Assembly (NCBI GenBank): GCA_045119035.1
Contig: JBGVCU010000057.1
Coordinates: 37,238-101,237 of the forward strand
Direction: 5' to 3'
Source: Bacilli bacterium
GTDB lineage: Bacteria; Bacillota_I; Bacilli_A; ML615J-28; CAG-313
Length of the DNA stretch: 64,000 nt
Shown in pieces: positions 7,301 to 35,538 of the stretch. The position numbers and the translations under genes were made by a program. Under the pieces are notes generated by a model, which saw only the letters and a list, made by a program, of their open reading frames with translations, did no database searches and had not been told where the DNA came from. Each line of letters starts with the position of its first letter. The stretch's first letter is position 1.

Positions 7301-8678
7301 TCAACTTGATGATGTTATATATATTACAACTATTTTAAATGAGTGGGAACAATATTGTTTAAATGATTTTATTACTGGTATTAAAGAAGGAAAATATAAA
7401 GAAAATCTTGCTGTTAATTTCTATTATTCAGTATTAGATAAATATCGTACAGAACTAGAAAAAATCCCATATGTAGAATATTCTACAGATGAATTTTTGA
7501 ATGATGTTAAAGAATATAATATGTATGAACTTGCATATTGTACAAAAAACATTCATAAAATTAGATTATCTGTTCAACATGATAAAAGAAATAACCGTTT
7601 TAATACTGTTCGTTTTAATGATTATAATGCTATGATTAATTTTACTTTAAATCAACGTGCTATATATTTAGCTGATTTAAATATCTTTAATTCTAATATT
7701 AAATTATCAAACTTTGATTTAGTTTTAGTTGATGATGGACATTTATCAACTGCGAACAAATATAATCGTATTAAAGAATGTAAACAAGTAATTGTATTTG
7801 GAGATAAATCATTTAGATCTTCAATTGTTAACTCTTTAATGCAAAGAACACCTACTCATGCAACTATTGACTTTAATCATCGATATGTTTTAATGTCTAA
7901 TAAATACAATAATTTATTCTCTAGAACAAATCAATATATTAAGTCACATAAAACAAAAACATTTATTGAACCAATTGAGTCAATTGATGATTTTGTTAAT
8001 GAAGTTGTAAAAGTATTCTATGAAAAACCTAATCAAGTAATGAATATTATTGTAGGTAAACATAGCACAAAACGTATTATGTATAAAAAATTAATCGATA
8101 AATTAGTAGAGTTTTATTCGAGAGAAGAAATTACTACGATTTTCAATTATCGTATTAAGATAATTTATTCAAATCATGAATCTGCAAGCTATGTAAATAA
8201 TGTATTCTTCTTTTTTGATGATTATTTAAATATGGATGAAAATTCACTTGAATTATTATTTAAGAATTTTACAATTGTAGAAAATTATATTTTCATCAAA
8301 TATATTAAAAACGAAAATGAAGAAGAAAATCAAAAAATCGTTAAACTTCTTAATGGTATTATTAACAATAAAGAAGGAATTAAAAAAGAAAAAGAAATTA
8401 GTAAAATCATTATTGATGATATAAAGAAAAGAAATATTGGTACAAGAGTAGATTTTGGTTTTGGTGCCTTTGATATTGTAATTAGATCTACAACGAATAC
8501 TGGTATAATTATATCTGGTTCTAAGACAGAAGATATATATTCTAATATAGATGATGTAAATTTCTATGTTACAACATATAGAAAATTTGGATGGAACGTA
8601 ATAATGATTGATATTGCTGAATTTGTTGATGATTACTATTCAGCGTTAAATAAAATTATAGACTTATGTAAGAAATAG
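4368..8678 (+). CDS. Giant cytoplasmic P-loop protein (1436 aa); DUF4011-like N-terminus and degenerate SF1-helicase-like motifs
   Basis: Strong RBS AAGGAGG. N-terminal FEVHAPMVLIPVEIDYENF block. Walker A GKLGSGKTYT near aa 268. A distant VLVDDGH / VIVFGDKSF motif II/III-like region near aa 1090. No TM segment or signal peptide. Confidence 0.55.
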   Translation: MKHNQSNYRIELRNKHLLDILCSDYYLELGVIDLNLLNDLLNDKQLNLVDIEYRDLSNEGVGQIREDDEDIHYQVNYLVSLRQKNSTDKFFITCNCLRYLNTEGFEVHAPMVLIPVEIDYENFRICKSGPAIPNSLLLNYLTKEFMIKESNPNYGKENNDSKKQSSLAHSLDDFKNPKLNTFSQIDKYCEELASLCGLKYNIYNYLTTVQVEYNDYISDENVFDVERSIYSRRPEEITEEYFKKVKAILPTNISQKEAILKAANGESFVVNGKLGSGKTYTAINIICDQLAKGKKILYVNQDIDNLYDIEKNLNALHLENAVYNFSKNIKSIDSSKTVFPDGFDSEFDISKVKKIESYHDHYDYKLHGYSKRKIYEDIAVIKRQHQKLEPIEIKTNLQYFEAVHIYEQAKEVEKRLNLIDPYDTNCWRNISIEHHNLNDQEIANRTKNMLDANQQLLKKSLAFQENYFIKAPNNIADIYSLTTCMAEFAKARPLKSWLDRSTKVKVKSAIQELQNLSDTYFSVREYYGQNILNTYVPKKIDNIIERLHYKLFGTSELTKASDELYINKLLNEKNNIIQITETIKKLSLDFENVSNNIKQYFNINSLDEYIYETIEELYLLLSNNYIIKKWYIAFNTAYEKLMDIQNEVLYHIDELELLKKELSQYILKPEYLTFEYSDEAAKSPIFNLYARRYFNRKAITQAHLTVDHITDLYERFYKKQLEINQLVVDMTYIKKYSVEEQYKAFIAFCNYVKRLSKLEMRIIKNFFANVVYNPEYDYEKVISDLQIFLQNVDSLKKLENRLLEYKIKLTSHLPHEKINELLTWNIYLQDVLLCGKELEGIFKYNSDIHYAGLIYLSKKDSQIEHVQNKVKEKEQYFISLLGESFKGFDTDITGITKLIEYFDQFSDRFKHIRYIDQLFNDKFYQMVTDSEEILDLYNKWFEAYKALSNCFRGGLSIFQRQKLSENHILLQKYYNKINQLDDVIYITTILNEWEQYCLNDFITGIKEGKYKENLAVNFYYSVLDKYRTELEKIPYVEYSTDEFLNDVKEYNMYELAYCTKNIHKIRLSVQHDKRNNRFNTVRFNDYNAMINFTLNQRAIYLADLNIFNSNIKLSNFDLVLVDDGHLSTANKYNRIKECKQVIVFGDKSFRSSIVNSLMQRTPTHATIDFNHRYVLMSNKYNNLFSRTNQYIKSHKTKTFIEPIESIDDFVNEVVKVFYEKPNQVMNIIVGKHSTKRIMYKKLIDKLVEFYSREEITTIFNYRIKIIYSNHESASYVNNVFFFFDDYLNMDENSLELLFKNFTIVENYIFIKYIKNENEEENQKIVKLLNGIINNKEGIKKEKEISKIIIDDIKKRNIGTRVDFGFGAFDIVIRSTTNTGIIISGSKTEDIYSNIDDVNFYVTTYRKFGWNVIMIDIAEFVDDYYSALNKIIDLCKK

Positions 8679-14656: not shown

Positions 14657-15487
14657 ATGAATAAAAAAATAAAACACAATGGCGAACTTGTGATGATAAA
14701 TAATCACAAAATTCATATATATAGAGAAGGAAATAAAAACAACCCTATAATTGTATTTATGTCAGGTCATTGTACAGTTGCTCCTGTTTATGATTTTAAA
14801 GTTTTATACGGAAAATTATTAAATAACTTTAGGGTAATTGTTATTGAAAAATTTGGATATGGTTATTCTGATATATGTGATTCACCTTGTGATATTGATA
14901 CTCTTGTTTCAATACAAAGACAGGCGTTAATTACACTAGGAGAAACTGGACCATATATCTTAACAACTCATTCAATGTCAGGCTTAGAAGCGATTAGATG
15001 GAAACAAAAGTATCCTGATGAAGTATCTGCTATTATTGGTATTGATATGGCAACTCCATTATCTTTTAGTGTTTGGAAAGAAAAAGATATTAAAAAAATA
15101 GTTCGTCTTATGAAGGTTTTAAGAGGAATGAGACTTGCTAGTGTTTTAAGTACAGTTAGTAATCTTTCTTTAAATGAGGATGAATTTAAACAACATAAGC
15201 TTTTAAAGAAAAGAAATGCATTTAACTAATGTTGCATAAATGAAGCAAAAGAAGTTTTGAATAATGTAAGACTTGTAACTGAGTCTGGTGATATTAAATG
15301 TCCAACATTATTATTTTCATCTAATGGTCAAGATCAAGAACAAGACTGGGTATTAAATCAACAAAAATTTGCTACAATGATGGATGCAAAGTTGATTCAG
15401 TATGATTGTGGACATTATATCCATCATTTTAAAAGTGATGAAATGCGTAAGGAAATTATTGAATTTGTAAAATCATTAGAAAAATAA
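14657..15487 (+). pseudogene. Alpha/beta-hydrolase interrupted by an in-frame TAA (15227-15229)
   Basis: The 190-aa and 76-aa ORFs lie in the same frame. HSMSG nucleophile elbow sits upstream of the stop; CGHYIHHF catalytic-His region sits downstream. Confidence 0.6.
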
Positions 15488-15491
15488 AAAA

Positions 15492-15536
15492 ATATTTAAC
15501 GGTCGGTAGAGCAATTCGGTCGGCCGTTTTTTATTT
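15492..15536 (+). terminator. Rho-independent terminator
   Basis: AACGGTCGG ... TCGGCCGTT stem followed by TTTTT. Confidence 0.5.
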
Positions 15537-15587
15537 CAAGGCAAATTTGTAGTTTCTGTTCAGAATAACTTTGTAATTTTACATCAT

Positions 15588-15690
15588 TGTAATATTACAA
15601 GTTCATTTTGGAAAAATATAACAATTTGAATTTGGAAAAATCACAAGTAAAATAAGATATGTAAGATCGTTCAAAAGAACGGTCTTTTTT
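15588..15690 (+). repeat. Direct repeat copy 2, ending in terminator GATCGTTCAAAAGAACGGTCTTTTTT
   Basis: About 85% identical to 14365-14478, including the duplicated TTTGAAAAA/TTTGGAAAAA sub-repeats. Confidence 0.6.
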
Positions 15691-16201
15691 GTTACTTTAA
15701 CGGCAGTATTAATATTAAGTATATAATAATAAAAATCAAATTGATAAAATAAATCCAAATTATAAAAGAAATAATATAATTTAATATATCTATATAAATA
15801 GTATATGAAGTATATATTGTACTTACTATTACATATAATATAATTACTTACTTTGTTAATTCTAACTCAACTATAAAACTTAAATGAGTTTTTTTGCTCA
15901 AATACTTTTTGTAAAATTATTCCAGATTAGCTTTGTAATGATACATATTGATTTGATTAAAAAATTGTTTTAATATGTTTTTTTATAAAATAATACTAAT
16001 TTAATAAAGAATTTGAATTAAAAATGTAAATTTTTTCTAATAATATAAATTTGTATTATAATTTCAGTATTGAAACTAACCTTAGTTAAATTTATATAGA
16101 AAGTAACTGCATAAATATATGAATTTAATATATTTTTTAGCATAGAAAAAACCTATAAGTAGTTTTAATATTAATTGTGATATTATGATTTAAAAATTTG
16201 A

Positions 16202-16236
16202 GTTGCTTGCAAATTGCAAGCAACTGTGGTATAATA
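16202..16236 (+). promoter_or_regulatory. 25-bp perfect palindrome AGTTGCTTGCAAATTGCAAGCAACT abutting the extended -10 (TGGTATAAT) of the fic promoter; candidate operator
   Basis: Perfect dyad 16202-16226; -10 at 16231-16236; start codon at 16264. Confidence 0.5.
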
Positions 16237-16263
16237 TTTATATGAAAGAAAGAATGTGATTAT

Positions 16264-17121
16264 ATGTATGAAAGAACATCTATACGTTTTTTTAATAATA
16301 AACCTGTTAGATCTTTTTATGATACTGAATTATCAAATTGGTTAATGTGTGCAGTAGATTTGATAGATGCTATTGTTGAAACAAATAATGCTAGAATATA
16401 TTGGTATACTATTAAAAGAAGAAGACCTGAGTTAGTTGCATTTTGCAAGCAACTGAAAATGAGGGCTGCCGATTCTAAAATATATAATACTGATTGTCTT
16501 ACAGAGGAAGGAATAAATTTGCTTTTGTTTTTGCTTCCAATTAAAAATAAGTTAGCTATTCAAGAATGGATTAAAGGTAAGAATAATCCTTTAGATGAAC
16601 AAAGTAAGCTTAGAGCATATGAATTGTTTGATAGTGATATTATTAATAATATTGAAGTTGGTACTATTAATGGACTAAAACAAATACATTCATTCTTATT
16701 TGGTGGATTATATTCTTTTGCAGGACAAATTAGAGAAAAAAACATTTCCAAAGATAATTTTACTTTTGGGAATGCACTATACTTAAATGAAACATTAAGT
16801 AAAATAGAAAAAATGCCAGAAGTGACTTTTGATAATATTGTTGAAAAGTATGTAGAAATGAATATAGCACATCCATTTATGGAAGGTAATGGTAGAACTA
16901 CTAGAATATGGTTAGATTTGATATTTAAAAAGAATCTTTCTATGGTTATAGATTGGAGCAAAATAAAGAAAGAAGAATATCTAAATGCTATGCGAGTTAG
17001 TGTATATTCTGATAAGCAAATAAAAGATTTGTTAAAATCAGCTTTAACAAGTGATATTAATAGTAGAGAGTTATTTATGAAAGGAATAGATTACTCATAC
17101 TATTATGAAGAAGTAGAGTAA
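16264..17121 (+). CDS. fic: Fic family protein (putative AMPylase)
   Basis: Canonical Fic motif [12 protein letters not shown]; 285 aa; no recognisable [ST]xxxE[GN] inhibitory helix found. Confidence 0.8.
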
Positions 17122-17400
17122 TATTAAATACAATTATAGTTAAATTAGTATATATGAATCAAAATATGACAAAACACTTTGCAAATACAATATCTAGTTT
17201 ATGCATTATAGTAAGCATTGCATTATTGTTTTGTCCTATTTCATCTTTTTAAAATGAAGATAAAACCATAAGTAAATATGTTTTTATAACTAGTATTATA
17301 ATTTGTTTAATTTATTTTATCAAATGAAAAAAGTATAATATAACTATATGTTATTATACAAATGATTTAATAATTATTAATTTTATATTTTGGTGAGTTT

Positions 17401-19331: not shown

Positions 19332-19509
19332 AATGATACTAATAATTTTAAAAGAAAAAGATCATAAAGTAATTTATGGTCTTTTTTGACGCTATATATT
19401 AGAATTATTATAAGATTATTTGATATCTATTTTTTCTTGTGATATAATAAAACAAAAAAGATAATTGTTTTATTATATTATTAACTTTAAAGATAAGGAG
19501 GTGTTGATA

Positions 19510-22500
19510 GTGAAAAATAGTGAGTTTAATGTATTTGATGAATATCAAAGAACCAATGAAAATATTAATTTCCAAGCAATACAATATTCAGTTACAAGTA
19601 AAGAATCATATATACAAAAAGATGAAGTATTAAGAACTAATGAAGAAAATCTATTAAATAATTCTAATAAAAAAATTAGTTCTAAAACTGATACTAGTAT
19701 AGTTAAAAAATTAATACAAAAAGTAACAGAAGCAACAAGCTCATTAATTGGAAATATTGCTATAACTGCTACAATAGCTGTTACATCAATTGTTATTTTC
19801 TCTAGTGTACTAATTAAAGCACCTAATATTGAATTGCTAGATTTAATAGCTGGATATGATTATGTTTCTTATAATATATATATTGATGAAACAAGTGAAG
19901 ATATGGATTATTATGTTTCTATATCGAATAACTTTGAAAATTATATATATGAATTACATGAAGGTGAAAATCTTGGAAATGTAAATAATTTAAAGCATAA
20001 TTTGGAATATGAATTAGCTGTCATTGGTATAGGCAAAAGTGATAAACAAGAAATAAAATATTTTAAAACAAAATTCTATACGACAACAAGTGTTAAAATA
20101 ATTTCTATTAAATGGATAGTAGAAGGAATAATTGTTAAAGAAGAAGAAACCGAAGAAAATTTTAATCCTTCCTATGACGGAGCAACGCCTATTAAACCAT
20201 CAACTAATCAATTTAACTATACATTCTTAAAATGGAATGCTTCAGTTGATGACTACGGGAATATTACATATATTGCAGAATTCATTGAAAGTGTTAGACT
20301 TTATACTGTTAAATGGATAGTAGAAGATAATATTGTAAAAGAAGATCAAATAGAATATGGAGTAACTCCTACATATAATGGAACTACCCCAACAAAAGCA
20401 TCAACTAATGAATTTAACTATACATTCTTAAAATGGAATCAAACAACTGATGAAATAGGAAATATCACATATATCGCAGAATTTACCGAAAGTTCTAGAT
20501 TATATTCTGTAACATGGATTTCTGAAAATGTTATTTTAGAAGAAGATCAAATAAAATATGGAGTAACTCCTACATATAATGGAGATACCCCAACAAAAGC
20601 ATCCACTAATGAATTTAACTATACATTCTTAAAATGGAATAAATCGACTGATGAAATCGGAAATATCACATATATCGCAGAATTTACACAAAGTACTAGA
20701 TTATATTCTGTAACATGGATATCTGAAAATATTATTTTAGAAGAAGATCAAATAGAATATGGTATAACTCCTACATATAATGGAGTTACCCCAACAAAAG
20801 CATCAACTAATGAATTTGACTATACATTCTTAAAATGGAATGAAACAACTGATGAAAACGGAAATATCACATATATTGCAGAATTTACCCAAAGTACTAG
20901 ATTTTATTCTGTAACATGGATATCTGAAAATATTGTTTTAGAAGAAAAACAAATAGAATATGGTGCAATCCCTACTTATGATGGCGTAACACCTTCTAAA
21001 GAAATGACAGTAGATGAAGAATATACGTTTATTGGTTGGGATAAAGAAATATCAAGTGTAACATCAGATATTTCATATAACGCTGTATTTGAAACAATTA
21101 TACATGAATATACAGCAACATTTATAGAACTTAATCCAGAAGAATTAACTATTGATTATGATAATCCTGATGTATATTCAATAACATTTAATACTAACTT
21201 TGATAATAGTTCTGATTCGAGATTATTATACAGAATTATTTTAACAGATATTGAAACAAATACTCAATACACATACGAAGGAACAGACGCAATTGCAACA
21301 ATTGATGTGTTATCATCAGTAAAAGAATTGTCTATTTCTTATGAATACGTTGGTTTATATAATGAAATGGAAAAAGTATTTGAAGTTAGCAATGTCGTTG
21401 ATCACATTGTTATAAGTAATATTACTGTTGAAATTCAAGACGAATATACATTAATAGATACTGACTTATATGAATTAAATCTTCAAGTAAATTCAAATTA
21501 TTCAAATGAAGAAGTCTATAACTATCTTGAATTAGTTATTACTTATGATGATTTATCAAAAAAAGAAGTATTAATTGAAAATATTTCAGTTAATGAATAT
21601 ATGAGTATTAATATTGATGTACCACAATATTGTAATTCATTCACTATCGAATATAGAATAAATTTATTAGATAGATATGGGTTAAATGAACGAATTATTT
21701 CAGGAACTAAAGAAATTGCTTTAGAAACAATTTATGAACTTAAACAAGTTTATGTAGATACAAGGATGTTCAATACAGCAAAATTTAAATTCATTCATCA
21801 TTTTGTTGATGAAAATACAACAATTGCTGTAAAAGATACAATATCAGGTGAAACTGTTTTATTGACAGAAGAATATGATTATGTAGAATTCTCAATTAAC
21901 TCTACTCAACAAGATTTTACATATTATTTATCAAGTTTAAATAATGAAATATTAGATAATGAAAAACAAATATCATTTGATTCTTCAAATGTTAATGGAG
22001 AATATAAATTTAATTATACAAATCCAGGAGATGCTATTGTAACATTTAATGATGATGGTACAATGAATATATATCTTGATACAACCTTTGAAACTGAAGA
22101 TAGTGATATATATTATTTAATCAGATATACTGATTTTAATAGCGAAAATGTTTTTGAAATTAAATATAATGAATCAGTTTCTGTAATTGAAAATATTCCA
22201 TTTAGTAATTATGGAATTGAATATTATGTTTATAAAACTGTAAATGGTATTGAATATTGCCTTGATTATATTGCTGTATCTGGTGGGGTAGAAATAATTT
22301 ATGATTCAATTATCTCTGCTAATATAGAAAGAGATAATAACAATAAATTGGTTTTATACGGATCGTTTGGTGATTATTATAATGTGAATTTTGATTCAAT
22401 AGTATTATTTATAGATGATCAAGAAATATCAATAAATTCATCTGATATTACGCTAGTTGATGGAACATATCAATTTATTTATATATTAGACATTGAACCA

Positions 22501-22623
22501 TCACAATTAAAAGTACAATATCAAGCAACATACAATAAAACAGCAATATATGAAACTATAGTATCTTCAGGAAAATTAAAAGGTGAACAATATAGAACAA
22601 TGTATTGTGTTGTTATTGAATAA
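19510..22623 (+). CDS. Type-II membrane/surface protein with about 5 tandem Listeria-Bacteroides-type (Flg_new-like) 67-aa repeats
   Basis: GTG start 9 nt after AAGGAGG; the tool's ATG at 19465 lacks an RBS. Single TM near aa 80-105. Repeats carry TPTKASTNEFNYTFLKWN. Large C-terminal domain. Confidence 0.65.
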   Translation: MKNSEFNVFDEYQRTNENINFQAIQYSVTSKESYIQKDEVLRTNEENLLNNSNKKISSKTDTSIVKKLIQKVTEATSSLIGNIAITATIAVTSIVIFSSVLIKAPNIELLDLIAGYDYVSYNIYIDETSEDMDYYVSISNNFENYIYELHEGENLGNVNNLKHNLEYELAVIGIGKSDKQEIKYFKTKFYTTTSVKIISIKWIVEGIIVKEEETEENFNPSYDGATPIKPSTNQFNYTFLKWNASVDDYGNITYIAEFIESVRLYTVKWIVEDNIVKEDQIEYGVTPTYNGTTPTKASTNEFNYTFLKWNQTTDEIGNITYIAEFTESSRLYSVTWISENVILEEDQIKYGVTPTYNGDTPTKASTNEFNYTFLKWNKSTDEIGNITYIAEFTQSTRLYSVTWISENIILEEDQIEYGITPTYNGVTPTKASTNEFDYTFLKWNETTDENGNITYIAEFTQSTRFYSVTWISENIVLEEKQIEYGAIPTYDGVTPSKEMTVDEEYTFIGWDKEISSVTSDISYNAVFETIIHEYTATFIELNPEELTIDYDNPDVYSITFNTNFDNSSDSRLLYRIILTDIETNTQYTYEGTDAIATIDVLSSVKELSISYEYVGLYNEMEKVFEVSNVVDHIVISNITVEIQDEYTLIDTDLYELNLQVNSNYSNEEVYNYLELVITYDDLSKKEVLIENISVNEYMSINIDVPQYCNSFTIEYRINLLDRYGLNERIISGTKEIALETIYELKQVYVDTRMFNTAKFKFIHHFVDENTTIAVKDTISGETVLLTEEYDYVEFSINSTQQDFTYYLSSLNNEILDNEKQISFDSSNVNGEYKFNYTNPGDAIVTFNDDGTMNIYLDTTFETEDSDIYYLIRYTDFNSENVFEIKYNESVSVIENIPFSNYGIEYYVYKTVNGIEYCLDYIAVSGGVEIIYDSIISANIERDNNNKLVLYGSFGDYYNVNFDSIVLFIDDQEISINSSDITLVDGTYQFIYILDIEPSQLKVQYQATYNKTAIYETIVSSGKLKGEQYRTMYCVVIE
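20092..21095 (+). repeat. Tandem ~201-bp coding repeats (5 copies; the last three more than 90% identical)
   Basis: Repeating units AGATTATATTCTGTAACATGGAT(T/A)TCTGAAAAT ... GAAGAAGATCAA, visible directly in the sequence. Confidence 0.75.
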
Positions 22624-35489: not shown

Positions 35490-35505
35490 TTAAAATTATA
35501 ATTAA

Positions 35506-35538
35506 TATGTGCACAAAATTTTTGTGCACATATTTTAT
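35506..35538 (+). terminator. Rho-independent terminator
   Basis: ATGTGCACAAAA-TT-TTTGTGCACAT followed by a T-run. Confidence 0.6.

What the first reader, a model, noticed from the sequence alone, without database searches (positions are those of the whole stretch)
16202..16455. Fic gene guarded by a 25-bp perfect palindrome at its promoter, with the 13-mer half-site repeated inside the ORF and no visible antitoxin
AGTTGCTTGCAAATTGCAAGCAACT (16202-16226) is a flawless dyad directly abutting the extended -10. The half-site TTGCAAGCAACTG recurs exactly at 16443-16455 inside the coding region (codons AFCKQL). The Fic protein has the full catalytic HPFxEGNGRxxR motif but no [ST]xxxE[GN] inhibitory helix that I could find, and no small upstream antitoxin ORF; the 560-bp upstream region is non-coding. 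This may mean transcriptional rather than antitoxin-based control of a potentially toxic AMPylase, possibly with DNA looping between the two sites.
Basis: partly seen in the sequence, partly recalled or inferred. Interest (0 to 1): 0.55.

Follow-up and report, generated by a model that had tools for sequence, protein, structure and literature searches.

The report
Palindrome shared by promoter and coding sequence
A self-inhibited Fic toxin-like gene carries a 25-bp palindrome on its promoter, and that palindrome copies an older one buried in the codons of its own N-terminal DNA-binding domain; compensating mutations have preserved the buried copy across many bacterial phyla and three candidate anti-phage gene families.

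Summary
The perfect 12+1+12 palindrome is at 16201-16225. It covers the -35 and spacer of a TTGCAA-17-TGgTATAAT promoter.

Orthologues in unrelated genomic contexts carry a palindrome at the same place. The "half-site" in the ORF is a degenerate full second copy (16430-16454; 22 of 26 bases identical over the 26-mer that adds the flanking G at 16455).

One claim is wrong. Residues 109-283 are a class III, NmFic-type Fic domain. Its C-terminal S278-YYY-E282 aligns with the NmFic inhibitory helix. Only the last motif residue differs (E, not G/N), so no antitoxin is expected.

Residues 1-105 are a Bro-N domain. The fusion is already catalogued as the PADLOC defence candidate PDC-S04.

The intragenic copy is the ancestral one:
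- It sits at the same codons in all 95 Bro-N-Fic loci whose palindrome site could be scored, from many phyla.
- It also occurs in Bro-N/DinD-like (PDC-S13) and RhuM (PDC-S05) genes.
- It is kept by compensatory changes that alter the encoded amino acids.
- Promoter copies occur in only two Bacilli clades.

G.U pairs are not enriched, and the promoter copy lies upstream of the -10. Both point to a DNA-level element. My best guess, unproven, is that it is the binding site of the protein's own Bro-N domain (autorepression). The spacing between the two copies does not support DNA looping.

The parts
16201..16225 (.). Promoter copy of the palindrome, AGTTGCTTGCAA-a-TTGCAAGCAACT (12+1+12, perfect). 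Putative operator covering the -35 and spacer.
   Evidence: Orthologous copies sit in the same position relative to TATAAT in L084-L096, and in L025, L030 and L047.
16207..16212 (+). -35-like hexamer TTGCAA, inside the left arm of the palindrome.
   Evidence: 17-bp spacer, 10 of 12 matches to consensus.
16227..16235 (+). Extended -10, TGgTATAAT.
   Evidence: TATAAT lies 3 nt after CAACTG throughout the window's clade.
16264..17121 (+). Bro-N / class III Fic fusion gene, 285 aa (PADLOC candidate PDC-S04).
   Evidence: The start codon position is conserved in 80 genome loci.
16273..16575 (+). Bro-N domain, about residues 4-104.
   Evidence: Pfam Bro-N is weak in this protein (14.3 bits). Orthologues pass the gathering score (27-34.5 against 25.6). 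In the full-length AlphaFold2 model the 10-residue blocks covering residues 11-100 average pLDDT 79-93, with 62 for residues 1-10 and 59 for the linker. Foldseek matches viral Bro-N and antirepressor N-domains.
16430..16454 (.). Intragenic (ancestral) copy of the palindrome, AGTTAGTTGCAT-t-TTGCAAGCAACT. It is centred on the 2nd base of codon 60 (16442) and is degenerate here (9 of 12 arm pairs).
16870..16905 (+). Fic catalytic motif [12 protein letters not shown] (residues 203-214).
17095..17112 (+). C-terminal inhibitory-helix motif S278-Y-Y-Y-E282-E283, equivalent to NmFic S182-Y183...E186-G187.
   Evidence: alignment. S278, Y279-281 and E282 are invariant in 22 homologues. The fused family has SYYYE[E/Q/T].

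Best explanation
The gene encodes a single-chain, self-inhibited class III Fic AMP-transferase fused to an N-terminal Bro-N DNA-binding domain.

The 25-bp palindrome is a DNA-level cis element that belongs to the Bro-N domain's own gene. The ancestral copy lies inside the codons for residues 56-64 of the domain. In the window's lineage a second copy has been placed on the promoter, across the -35 and spacer.

The most likely mechanism is autorepression. A dimer, or a higher oligomer, of the protein would bind the palindrome through its Bro-N domains. Binding at the promoter copy would shut off initiation. Binding at the intragenic copy would act as a roadblock in lineages that have no promoter copy. 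A potentially toxic, antitoxin-less enzyme would then stay at a low level wherever the gene lands after horizontal transfer.

Enzyme activity is controlled separately by the C-terminal inhibitory helix, as in NmFic.

Shown here: the anatomy, the conservation, the covariation, the domain identities and the position on the promoter.
Inferred, not shown: that a protein binds the palindrome, that this protein is the Bro-N domain, and that the effect is repression.
For: 1. The promoter copy abuts the -10 at a fixed 3-nt offset and contains the -35. It is conserved in orthologues that are 62-81% identical, with compensatory changes at arm position 6 (C-G, A-T and G-C in the window, L090 and L085). 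The promoters of the window and L094 match at 24 of 25 positions although the proteins are only 64% identical.

2. Neighbouring genes differ in every locus, and the conserved block starts at the palindrome. Any specific binder that travels with the site must therefore be the gene's own product.

3. The N-terminal domain is Bro-N, a predicted DNA-binding domain (PMC8096241).

4. The palindrome follows this domain regardless of the C-terminal effector. It is present in all 95 Bro-N-Fic loci whose site could be scored, in 47 of 48 viral-contig loci, 45 of them non-Fic and mostly Bro-N/DinD-like, and in the 20 RhuM loci scored. In RhuM genes it sits in a different codon phase.

5. Covariation is strong. 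85.7% of cells are paired against 69.3% in shuffles. There are 197 double-sided changes against 72. None of 500 shuffles reaches the observed values, and slid registers give 15-43%. Twelve distinct inner 6-bp haplotypes are fully complementary.

6. The mismatch spectrum is symmetric between strands (GT/TG 25, AC/CA 18, other 162), and the promoter copy lies upstream of the -10. Both point to DNA rather than mRNA.

7. Where a promoter copy exists, the intragenic copy is degraded (mean 8.5 of 12 against 10.7 of 12; Mann-Whitney p = 2.5e-6, not corrected for phylogeny). This suggests the two copies are functionally redundant.

8. Spacing is strictly 12+1+12 in all three families, with no insertions or deletions.
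Against: - No binding data exist. Bro-N has no solved DNA complex, and its DNA-binding role is largely inferred.
- The inner 6-7 bp change freely provided they stay complementary. That pattern is typical of a hairpin or cruciform, not of a base-specific duplex operator. A duplex operator would need the protein's specificity to co-evolve with the site.
- A 25-bp fully symmetric site is long for two 100-residue domains.
- Promoter and intragenic copies match at the level of clades, not individual genomes. Ancestry alone could explain that match.
- The test showing a degraded intragenic copy rests on only two clades.
- In L095 the promoter copy lies inside the 3' end of the upstream ORF, so there it is transcribed.
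Confidence: 0.45

Rival explanations
1. The palindrome works as a structure, a DNA cruciform or a single-stranded hairpin (DNA or RNA), rather than as a duplex recognition sequence. One example is a supercoiling-sensitive cruciform that disables the promoter or blocks elongation. That would tie expression to DNA topology, which an NmFic-type enzyme changes through GyrB. Another example is an mRNA hairpin that affects stability or translation. The Bro-N protein may or may not recognise the structure.
For: - Complementarity is conserved while the sequence changes: 12 inner haplotypes, plus the outer swap CAGTTG...CAACTG to CAACTG...CAGTTG made by paired synonymous changes. This is the classic signature of a helix.
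- Predicted hairpins are stable: -16 to -17 kcal/mol, z from -4 to -6.7.
- The element sits in different codon phases in Bro-N and RhuM genes.
- NmFic targets GyrB (PMC12894286).
Against: - G.U pairs are not enriched, and 79% of non-Watson-Crick cells are non-wobble. That argues against an RNA helix.
- The promoter copy lies upstream of the -10, so it is absent from the gene's own transcript.
- There is no Rfam match.
- The spacer is a fixed 1 nt, and complementarity reaches the centre: pair 2 is 82% and pair 1 is 57%, against 46% and 37% expected. A hairpin cannot pair that close to its loop.
- Arms of 12 bp are short for cruciform extrusion in vivo.
- The PDC-S13 and PDC-S05 effectors are not known gyrase modifiers.
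Confidence: 0.3
2. The palindrome is a recombination site. It could be a crossover point for a site-specific recombinase, or a recombination-prone hairpin. It would mediate exchange of modules between Bro-N/RhuM genes, or inversion or deletion of the 229-bp segment between the two copies in the window's clade, which would give phase variation of the promoter and the first 55 codons.
For: - Two copies flank the -10, the 5' UTR and codons 1-55. Because each copy is palindromic, the pair counts as both direct and inverted repeats.
- In L084 and L095 the promoter copy reproduces the imperfections of the intragenic copy exactly (26 of 26 and 25 of 26).
- Bro-N is joined to several different effectors.
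- In segment comparisons, DinD-like proteins find their best Fic-type matches in different lineages upstream and downstream of the palindrome.
Against: - No recombinase gene is conserved nearby.
- Most lineages have a single copy, so they have no partner site.
- All 16 loci of the window's clade are in the same orientation.
- The mosaic signal is weak: 46-62% against 38-56% identity, with no sharp break.
- The site lies in the middle of a domain, not between domains.
Confidence: 0.1
3. The promoter palindrome is the operator of an unlinked host regulator, or a minus-strand terminator. The intragenic similarity would then be only a relic of how the promoter arose.
For: - On the minus strand the hairpin is followed by CAAATTTTTA and was flagged as terminator-like.
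- Only 64 kb of the genome was available to search for a regulator.
Against: - The T-run on the minus strand is absent in the relatives L084, L085 and L088.
- No other palindromic copy occurs in the window. The exact 25-mer occurs in metagenomes only in or before Bro-N-Fic genes.
- A host regulator cannot explain conservation of the intragenic element across phyla.
Confidence: 0.07

Closest known systems
Class III Fic proteins (NmFic of Neisseria meningitidis; also Helicobacter pylori, Enterococcus faecalis and Mycoplasma mycoides Fic)
   Same: - 59-61% identity over about 175 residues, and the NCBIfam NmFic equivalog model scores above its cutoff.
- Same HPFxEGNGRxxR loop.
- Same C-terminal inhibitory helix, with the Ser, the Glu and the Tyr equivalent to Y183.
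- No separate antitoxin.
   Different: - It carries an extra 105-residue N-terminal Bro-N domain.
- The last residue of the inhibitory motif is E, Q or T throughout the fused family, not G or N.
- Neither the target nor the oligomeric regulation has been tested.
PADLOC phage-defence candidates PDC-S04, PDC-S13 and PDC-S05 (RhuM)
   Same: - The window protein matches the full-length PDC-S04 model PDLC04841 (E 5e-117).
- The relatives that carry the palindrome fall in PDC-S13 and PDC-S05.
   Different: - These are computational candidates. PDC-S04 showed no defence activity in the one native-host test I found. A PDC-S05 representative protected E. coli.
- None of the papers I found describes an embedded palindrome.
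Intragenic or auxiliary operators: lac O2 in lacZ, gal OI in galE, purR operators downstream of its promoter (from general knowledge)
   Same: A promoter-proximal site is paired with a second copy inside a coding sequence about 200 bp downstream. Roadblock or cooperative repression is conceivable.
   Different: - Here the coding-sequence copy lies in the regulator's own DNA-binding-domain codons.
- It is the older of the two copies and is kept by amino-acid covariation across phyla.
- The helical phase between the two copies is not conserved.
Class I FicT/FicA (VbhT/VbhA, EcFicT/EcFicA) toxin-antitoxin modules
   Same: Fic fold and catalytic loop. The enzymes probably belong to the same family of gyrase/topoisomerase IV-directed AMP-transferases.
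   Different: There is no antitoxin gene, because the inhibitory helix is intramolecular. Similarity is only weak (E 1e-11).

Membership tests
Class III Fic (NmFic type) | Fic core motif HxFx[DE]GNGRxxR | tested here: met
   [12 protein letters not shown], residues 203-214.
Class III Fic (NmFic type) | C-terminal inhibitory helix [ST]xxxE[GN] in the same chain | tested here: met
   S278-YYY-E282 aligns with NmFic S182-YYY-E186. S and E are invariant in 22 homologues. The last residue is E283 rather than G/N, and is E, Q or T in the fused family. Ser and Glu are present and only the capping residue deviates.
Class III Fic (NmFic type) | Whole-protein score above the NCBIfam equivalog cutoff (NF046029) | tested here: met
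   268.7 bits against a cutoff of 230, covering model positions 4-177 of 177.
Class III Fic (NmFic type) | AMPylation of GyrB, activation by auto-AMPylation of the Y183 equivalent, and inhibition by tetramerisation | not testable with these tools
   Y279 is conserved. The biochemistry is known only for NmFic (PMC12894286).
Class I Fic toxin-antitoxin (FicT/FicA) | A small adjacent antitoxin gene that supplies the inhibitory helix | tested here: not met
   No such ORF lies upstream or downstream. Neighbouring genes are not conserved in relatives.
Bro-N domain (Pfam PF02498) | Score above the Pfam gathering threshold | tested here: inconclusive
   The window protein scores 14.3 bits against a threshold of 25.6. 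Alignable orthologues score 27-34.5, and PDC-S13 relatives 42-52. Foldseek matches Bro-N and antirepressor N-domains over about 100 residues at 2.8-4 A. Membership is reached through homology.
PADLOC PDC-S04 | Full-length match to the PDC-S04 HMM | tested here: met
   PDLC04841, E 4.8e-117, residues 1-284 against model positions 1-291 of 292.
PADLOC PDC-S04 | Confers phage resistance | not testable with these tools
   The only report I found was negative, in one native host (10.1101/2024.12.20.629700).
Two-operator DNA looping (lac / gal type) | Conserved helical phasing between the two sites | tested here: not met
   Centre-to-centre distances are 214, 218, 224, 226, 227, 229, 232 and 233 bp, or 20.4-22.2 turns.
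Intrinsic terminator | Hairpin followed directly by a U-run, conserved in relatives | tested here: not met
   Plus strand: followed by GTGGTATAAT. Minus strand: a T-run in the window only, absent in L084, L085 and L088.
Structured RNA element (Rfam, or a G.U-tolerant helix) | A match to a known RNA family, or a wobble-enriched mismatch spectrum on one strand | tested here: not met
   Rfam gave only noise. GT/TG 25 against AC/CA 18, with 162 other mismatches.
Dispersed intergenic repeat (REP / MITE-like) | Many copies in unrelated intergenic positions | tested here: not met
   The window holds one palindromic copy plus the intragenic one. The exact 25-mer in metagenomes gave 9 loci: one is the promoter copy of a Bro-N-Fic gene (L149), four were confirmed by translation as intragenic copies in other Bro-N-Fic genes (L146, L151-L153), and four carry the same coding-type flanks but gave no confirming translation. 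One unexplained intergenic array was seen in L043.

The most novel reading that the evidence does not exclude
The Bro-N/RhuM-type N-terminal domain and the 25-bp palindrome encoded inside its own codons form one portable unit: a nucleic-acid-binding domain whose recognition site, as duplex or cruciform, is written into the gene that encodes it. The unit would give built-in autoregulation to single-gene, antitoxin-less candidate anti-phage effectors (PDC-S04 Fic, PDC-S13 DinD/DdrC-like, PDC-S05 RhuM). It might also sense changes in DNA state during infection. The site's need for symmetry would have shaped the protein sequence itself, through amino-acid pairs that co-vary according to reverse-complement codon rules.
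Probability: 0.35. Interest if true: 0.85.

Novelty: new variant of a known kind. Interest (0 to 1): 0.68.

Why it matters
The ordinary part removes a false lead. The Fic enzyme is not uncontrolled, because it has the class III intramolecular brake.

The unexpected part could matter more widely. A nucleic-acid element has constrained the amino-acid sequence of a widespread domain. Residue pairs such as S/R, T/C, V/N, I/K and Y/I co-vary only because their codons are reverse complements of each other. The domain heads three families of candidate single-gene anti-phage systems whose regulation and trigger are unknown.

If the domain binds its own coding sequence, that would explain how toxic single-gene modules with no antitoxin stay silent after horizontal transfer into any genomic context. 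It would also give a concrete ligand for testing what Bro-N and RhuM domains recognise, a question open since the domain was first defined. Finally, it warns that substitution patterns in this region of Bro-N alignments reflect selection on the DNA, not on the protein.

Tried and rejected
- **Rfam** search of 15400-17300 at E up to 10 gave only noise.
- **AlphaFold2 on the N-domain alone**, with a shallow alignment, failed (pLDDT 47.5). I used the full-length model instead.
- **Foldseek against the PDB** was dominated by the Fic domain. A PDB sequence-profile search for a solved Bro-N relative found none.
- **A second homologous-protein search** with the N-domain returned only fragments.
- **tblastn against cultured phage records** found only four unannotated faecal contigs. 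The family is not in characterised phages.
- **Regulon search in the window.** AGTTG-N15-CAACT has one further exact hit, at 7727, but its interior is not palindromic. The excess of one-mismatch hits lies in coding repeats.
- **DNA-looping phasing**: not conserved.
- **Genome-by-genome co-evolution** of the promoter and intragenic copies: the signal is only at clade level.
- **Recombination mosaic test**: weak.
- **Antisense or minus-strand terminator**: not conserved.
- **A -1 frameshift signal upstream of the hairpin**: there is no slippery heptamer in the window's clade (read directly from the sequence).
- **The 5-codon uORF at 16243-16260**: absent in relatives.
- **Cluster look-up** for names or organisms returned none. 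The organism is known only as a low-G+C (27%) member of the Bacilli, near Acholeplasmatales/Anaeroplasmataceae-labelled MAGs.
Full report
**1. What is in the window**

The sequence AGTTGCTTGCAA-A-TTGCAAGCAACT is a perfect 12+1+12 dyad at 16201-16225, one base to the left of the stated coordinates. It is followed by G and then TGgTATAAT (16227-16235). The hexamer TTGCAA inside its left arm (16207-16212) lies 17 bp upstream of the -10. This makes a 10-of-12 sigma-70-type promoter with a TG extension. The palindrome therefore occupies the -35 and the spacer.

The 285-codon ORF starts at 16264. Its start position is conserved in 80 related genome loci.

The 13-mer TTGCAAGCAACTG recurs at 16443-16455. 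The only three exact copies of the 12-mer half-site in 64 kb are the two arms and this site. A perfect palindrome of this arm length is not very rare on its own in such AT-rich DNA: about 7.5% of simulated windows contain one. The window also has a second, a 31-bp terminator hairpin at 35504-35534. The case for function therefore rests on comparison with relatives.

**2. The protein, and the claim that is wrong**

Residues 109-283 align with Neisseria meningitidis NmFic at E 3e-66. They score 268.7 bits on the NCBIfam NmFic equivalog model, whose cutoff is 230. The AlphaFold2 model superposes on NmFic, H. pylori, E. faecalis and M. mycoides Fic structures.

The C-terminus ...[12 protein letters not shown] aligns residue for residue with NmFic ...GIEQSYYYEG. 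S278 and E282 therefore correspond to S182 and E186 of the class III inhibitory helix, and Y279 corresponds to the auto-AMPylated Y183 (NmFic biology from PMC12894286). These residues are invariant in 22 homologues.

Only the last motif residue departs from [GN]. Across the fused family the motif is SYYYE[E/Q/T], which is why a pattern search missed it. The gene is thus a class III Fic with an intramolecular brake. The absence of an antitoxin gene is expected, not remarkable.

**3.

Residues 1-105 or so have no counterpart in NmFic. In this protein Pfam Bro-N is only a weak hit (14.3 bits). Alignable orthologues pass the gathering score (27-34.5 against 25.6). In the full-length model the 10-residue blocks covering residues 11-100 average pLDDT 79-93, with 62 for the first ten residues and 59 for the linker. 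Foldseek matches this part to Bro-N and antirepressor N-domains of viral proteins.

Bro-N is regarded as a DNA-binding domain (PMC8096241).

The fusion is common. PADLOC already lists it as the phage-defence candidate PDC-S04, with a full-length match at E 5e-117. That candidate remains unvalidated, and one native-host test was negative.

**4. The promoter palindrome is conserved**

I fetched loci encoding proteins 64-81% identical to the window's, plus copies of the identical protein from other samples. Their neighbouring genes are all different. The upstream DNA nevertheless becomes alignable exactly at the palindrome: cAGTTGnTTGCAn-n-TTGnAAnCAACTG, then 3 nt, then TATAAT.

- The promoters of the window and L094 differ at 1 of 25 positions, although the proteins are only 64% identical.
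- Arm position 6 shows C-G, A-T and G-C pairs in different lineages.
- A second Bacilli clade (L025, L030, L047, and less clearly L010) has its own version, AGTTGTCCACAA-t-TTGTGGACAACT. In L025, L030 and L047 it sits at the same offset from a -10-like hexamer.

This is the behaviour of a functional promoter-proximal site. It is not a dispersed repeat. The window holds no other palindromic copy. The exact 25-mer was found in nine metagenome loci. One is the promoter copy of another Bro-N-Fic gene (L149). Four were confirmed by translation as intragenic copies inside other Bro-N-Fic genes (L146, L151-L153). The remaining four carry the same coding-type flanks but gave no confirming translation.

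**5. The "half-site" is a whole second copy, and it is the older one**

In register, window 16430-16455 matches the promoter copy at 22 of 26 positions. In L084, L095 and L088 the two copies match at 26, 25 and 24 of 26.

More striking is what happens in distant relatives that have no promoter copy at all. There the codons for residues 56-64 form a perfect or near-perfect palindrome, centred on the second base of the codon equivalent to F60. Examples are:

- CAGTTGTCTACAA-t-TTGTAGACAACTG (QLSTICRQL)
- CAGTTGTCGACAA-t-TTGTCGACAACTG
- CAGTTGGTTAGTG-c-CACTAACCAACTG (QLVSATNQL)
- GAGTTGACTACAA-a-TTGTAGTCAACTG (ELTTNCSQL)
- CAACTGGGTAGTG-g-CACTACCCAGTTG

.

The encoded amino acids differ radically between these types. 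They co-vary as reverse-complement codon pairs: S/R, T/C, V/N, S/T, Y/I and S/G. The flanking Gln-Leu codons switch between CAG TTG...CAA CTG and CAA CTG...CAG TTG by paired synonymous changes.

I tested this on 83 distinct sequences.

| Measure | Observed | Shuffled |
|---|---|---|
| Cells forming Watson-Crick or wobble pairs | 85.7% | 69.3% |
| Cells with a change on both sides | 197 | 72 |

None of 500 shuffles reached either observed value. All slid registers gave 15-43%. The shuffle control does not correct for shared ancestry. However, at least a dozen distinct inner haplotypes are fully complementary, so many independent compensatory events are needed. Pair 13 carries no signal, so the element is 12+1+12 = 25 bp, the same size as the promoter copy.

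**6. The element belongs to the domain, not to Fic**

A scan of viral contigs with an N-domain profile returned 48 loci. Three of the proteins carry the Fic catalytic motif (L097, L142 and one more). The other 45 do not: 37 match the DinD/DdrC-like C-terminal pattern and 8 match neither pattern. L101, the one representative scanned against PADLOC, is a full-length PDC-S13 match. The palindrome could be scored at the same protein position in 47 of the 48 loci, with further haplotypes. Two examples are CAACTGTACGATT-c-AATCGTACAGTTG and CAACTGCTTACAA-a-TTGTAAGCAGTTG, both 13 of 13.

RhuM-family genes (PADLOC PDC-S05) carry one as well. It lies just upstream of the codons for the equivalent beta-hairpin, in all 20 loci that could be scored. 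They give 11 distinct sequences, scoring 9-13 of 13, against a maximum of 8-9 elsewhere in the ORF in all but one locus (11 in L139). Here the centre falls on a third codon position, a different phase from the Bro-N genes. One PDC-S05 representative has been reported to protect E. coli against T4, T5 and T7.

I found no description of this element in Rfam or in full-text searches. The library searched is incomplete.

**7. DNA or RNA, and who reads it**

Three observations point to DNA:

- The promoter copy lies upstream of the -10, so it is not part of the gene's own transcript.
- Non-Watson-Crick cells show no wobble enrichment and little strand bias (GT/TG 25, AC/CA 18, other 162).
- Where a promoter copy exists, the intragenic copy is more degenerate (8.5 against 10.7 of 12 arm pairs, p = 2.5e-6). 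That is what one expects if the two copies do the same job. The caveat is that only two clades carry promoter copies.

Neighbouring genes are never conserved, and the element follows the Bro-N/RhuM domain through three different effector fusions and many phyla. The only specific partner that always travels with it is the domain itself. I therefore favour binding by the protein's own Bro-N domain, with autorepression at the promoter copy and a roadblock at the intragenic copy.

This is inference, and there are no binding data. The main difficulty is that the inner 6-7 bp vary freely as long as they stay complementary. That pattern fits a hairpin or cruciform better than a base-specific duplex operator. 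A cruciform or hairpin reading, with or without the Bro-N domain as its reader, is the main rival.

A recombination-site reading is weaker. No recombinase is linked, most lineages have one copy only, and the mosaic signal is faint. The looping idea is not supported, because the two copies are 214-233 bp apart with no conserved helical phase.

**8. Verdict**

The absence of an antitoxin is explained by ordinary class III Fic architecture. The finding's real interest lies elsewhere. An apparently undescribed palindrome embedded in coding sequence has shaped the amino-acid sequence of the Bro-N/RhuM domain across phyla and across three candidate defence families. The window's promoter carries a secondary copy of it.

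Noticed in passing
L154-L176, L045:2192-2218, L139 (RhuM / PDC-S05 genes): RhuM-family genes carry a 25-27-bp palindrome just upstream of the codons for the '...EGxR / ADGKxY' hairpin. The 20 loci that could be scored give 11 distinct covarying sequences, for example CAGTTGTTCGGAA-a-TTCCGAACAACTG (13 of 13). Its codon phase differs from that in the Bro-N-Fic genes.
   Followed up: partly
L097-L144 (IMG/VR contigs): Most of these proteins are not Fic fusions: 37 match a DinD/DdrC-like C-terminal pattern and 8 match neither pattern, while 3 carry the Fic motif. L101, the one scanned against PADLOC, is a full-length PDC-S13 match. The same palindrome could be scored at the same protein position in 47 of 48 loci. 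The family is absent from cultured-phage records.
   Followed up: partly
L043:4420-4530 (Alistipes MAG, downstream of its Fic gene): A free-standing intergenic array holds three palindromes of three different haplotypes (AAGTGGTTAG..CTAACCACTT, CAGTTGGTTAGTC-g-CACTAACCAACTG, AGATGACTACAA-t-TTGTAGACAACT), about 42 bp apart. It lies next to repeated TTTCAAAGTGCCA / TGGCACTTTGAAA hairpins. None of the three matches the haplotype of the adjacent gene. It could be operators for paralogues, or decayed gene fragments.
   Followed up: partly
L084:2757-2781: A third palindrome with the same AGTTG...CAACT ends but a different interior (AAGTTGAAGCATT-t-AATGCTTCAACTT, 12 of 12) lies 181 bp upstream of the promoter copy, after an AbiEii gene. 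It may simply be a terminator.
   Followed up: no
L055 and L062 (MAGs labelled Candidatus Peribacteria): The Bro-N-Fic ORF has in-frame TGA codons exactly where all relatives have Gly (for example FA*KIR and SK**F). TGA therefore appears to be read as Gly (genetic code 25), which is unexpected for a MAG with that taxonomic label.
   Followed up: partly
window 35504-35534: The only other long perfect palindrome in the window (15+1+15, AATATGTGCACAAAA-t-TTTTGTGCACATATT) is followed by a T-run, directly after the 1284-aa ORF. It is an ordinary intrinsic terminator.
   Followed up: yes
window 14657-15487: An alpha/beta-hydrolase-like gene is split into two consecutive ORFs (14657-15229 and 15257-15487). 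This could be a frameshift or a pseudogene. Two terminator-like hairpins follow it (about 15500-15535 and 15663-15686).
   Followed up: no
window 15488-16263: A 776-bp spacer of only 16-18% G+C lies upstream of the Fic promoter. Gene callers place a 41-aa minus-strand ORF in it (16018-16143) in L081 and L082. It has no recognisable function or homology.
   Followed up: no
window 16243-16260: A five-codon uORF (ATG AAA GAA AGA ATG TGA) overlaps the weak Shine-Dalgarno region of the Fic gene. It is not conserved in relatives, which have stronger AAGGTGAT-type sites.
   Followed up: partly
window 19465-22623: A 1052-aa ORF is built of tandem modules of roughly 45 residues (...YTFLKWN...GNITYIAEF...), typical of a repetitive surface protein. 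One-mismatch hits to AGTTG-N15-CAACT are over-represented in the window (12 against about 2 expected). One of them (20784-20808) lies inside this ORF.
   Followed up: no
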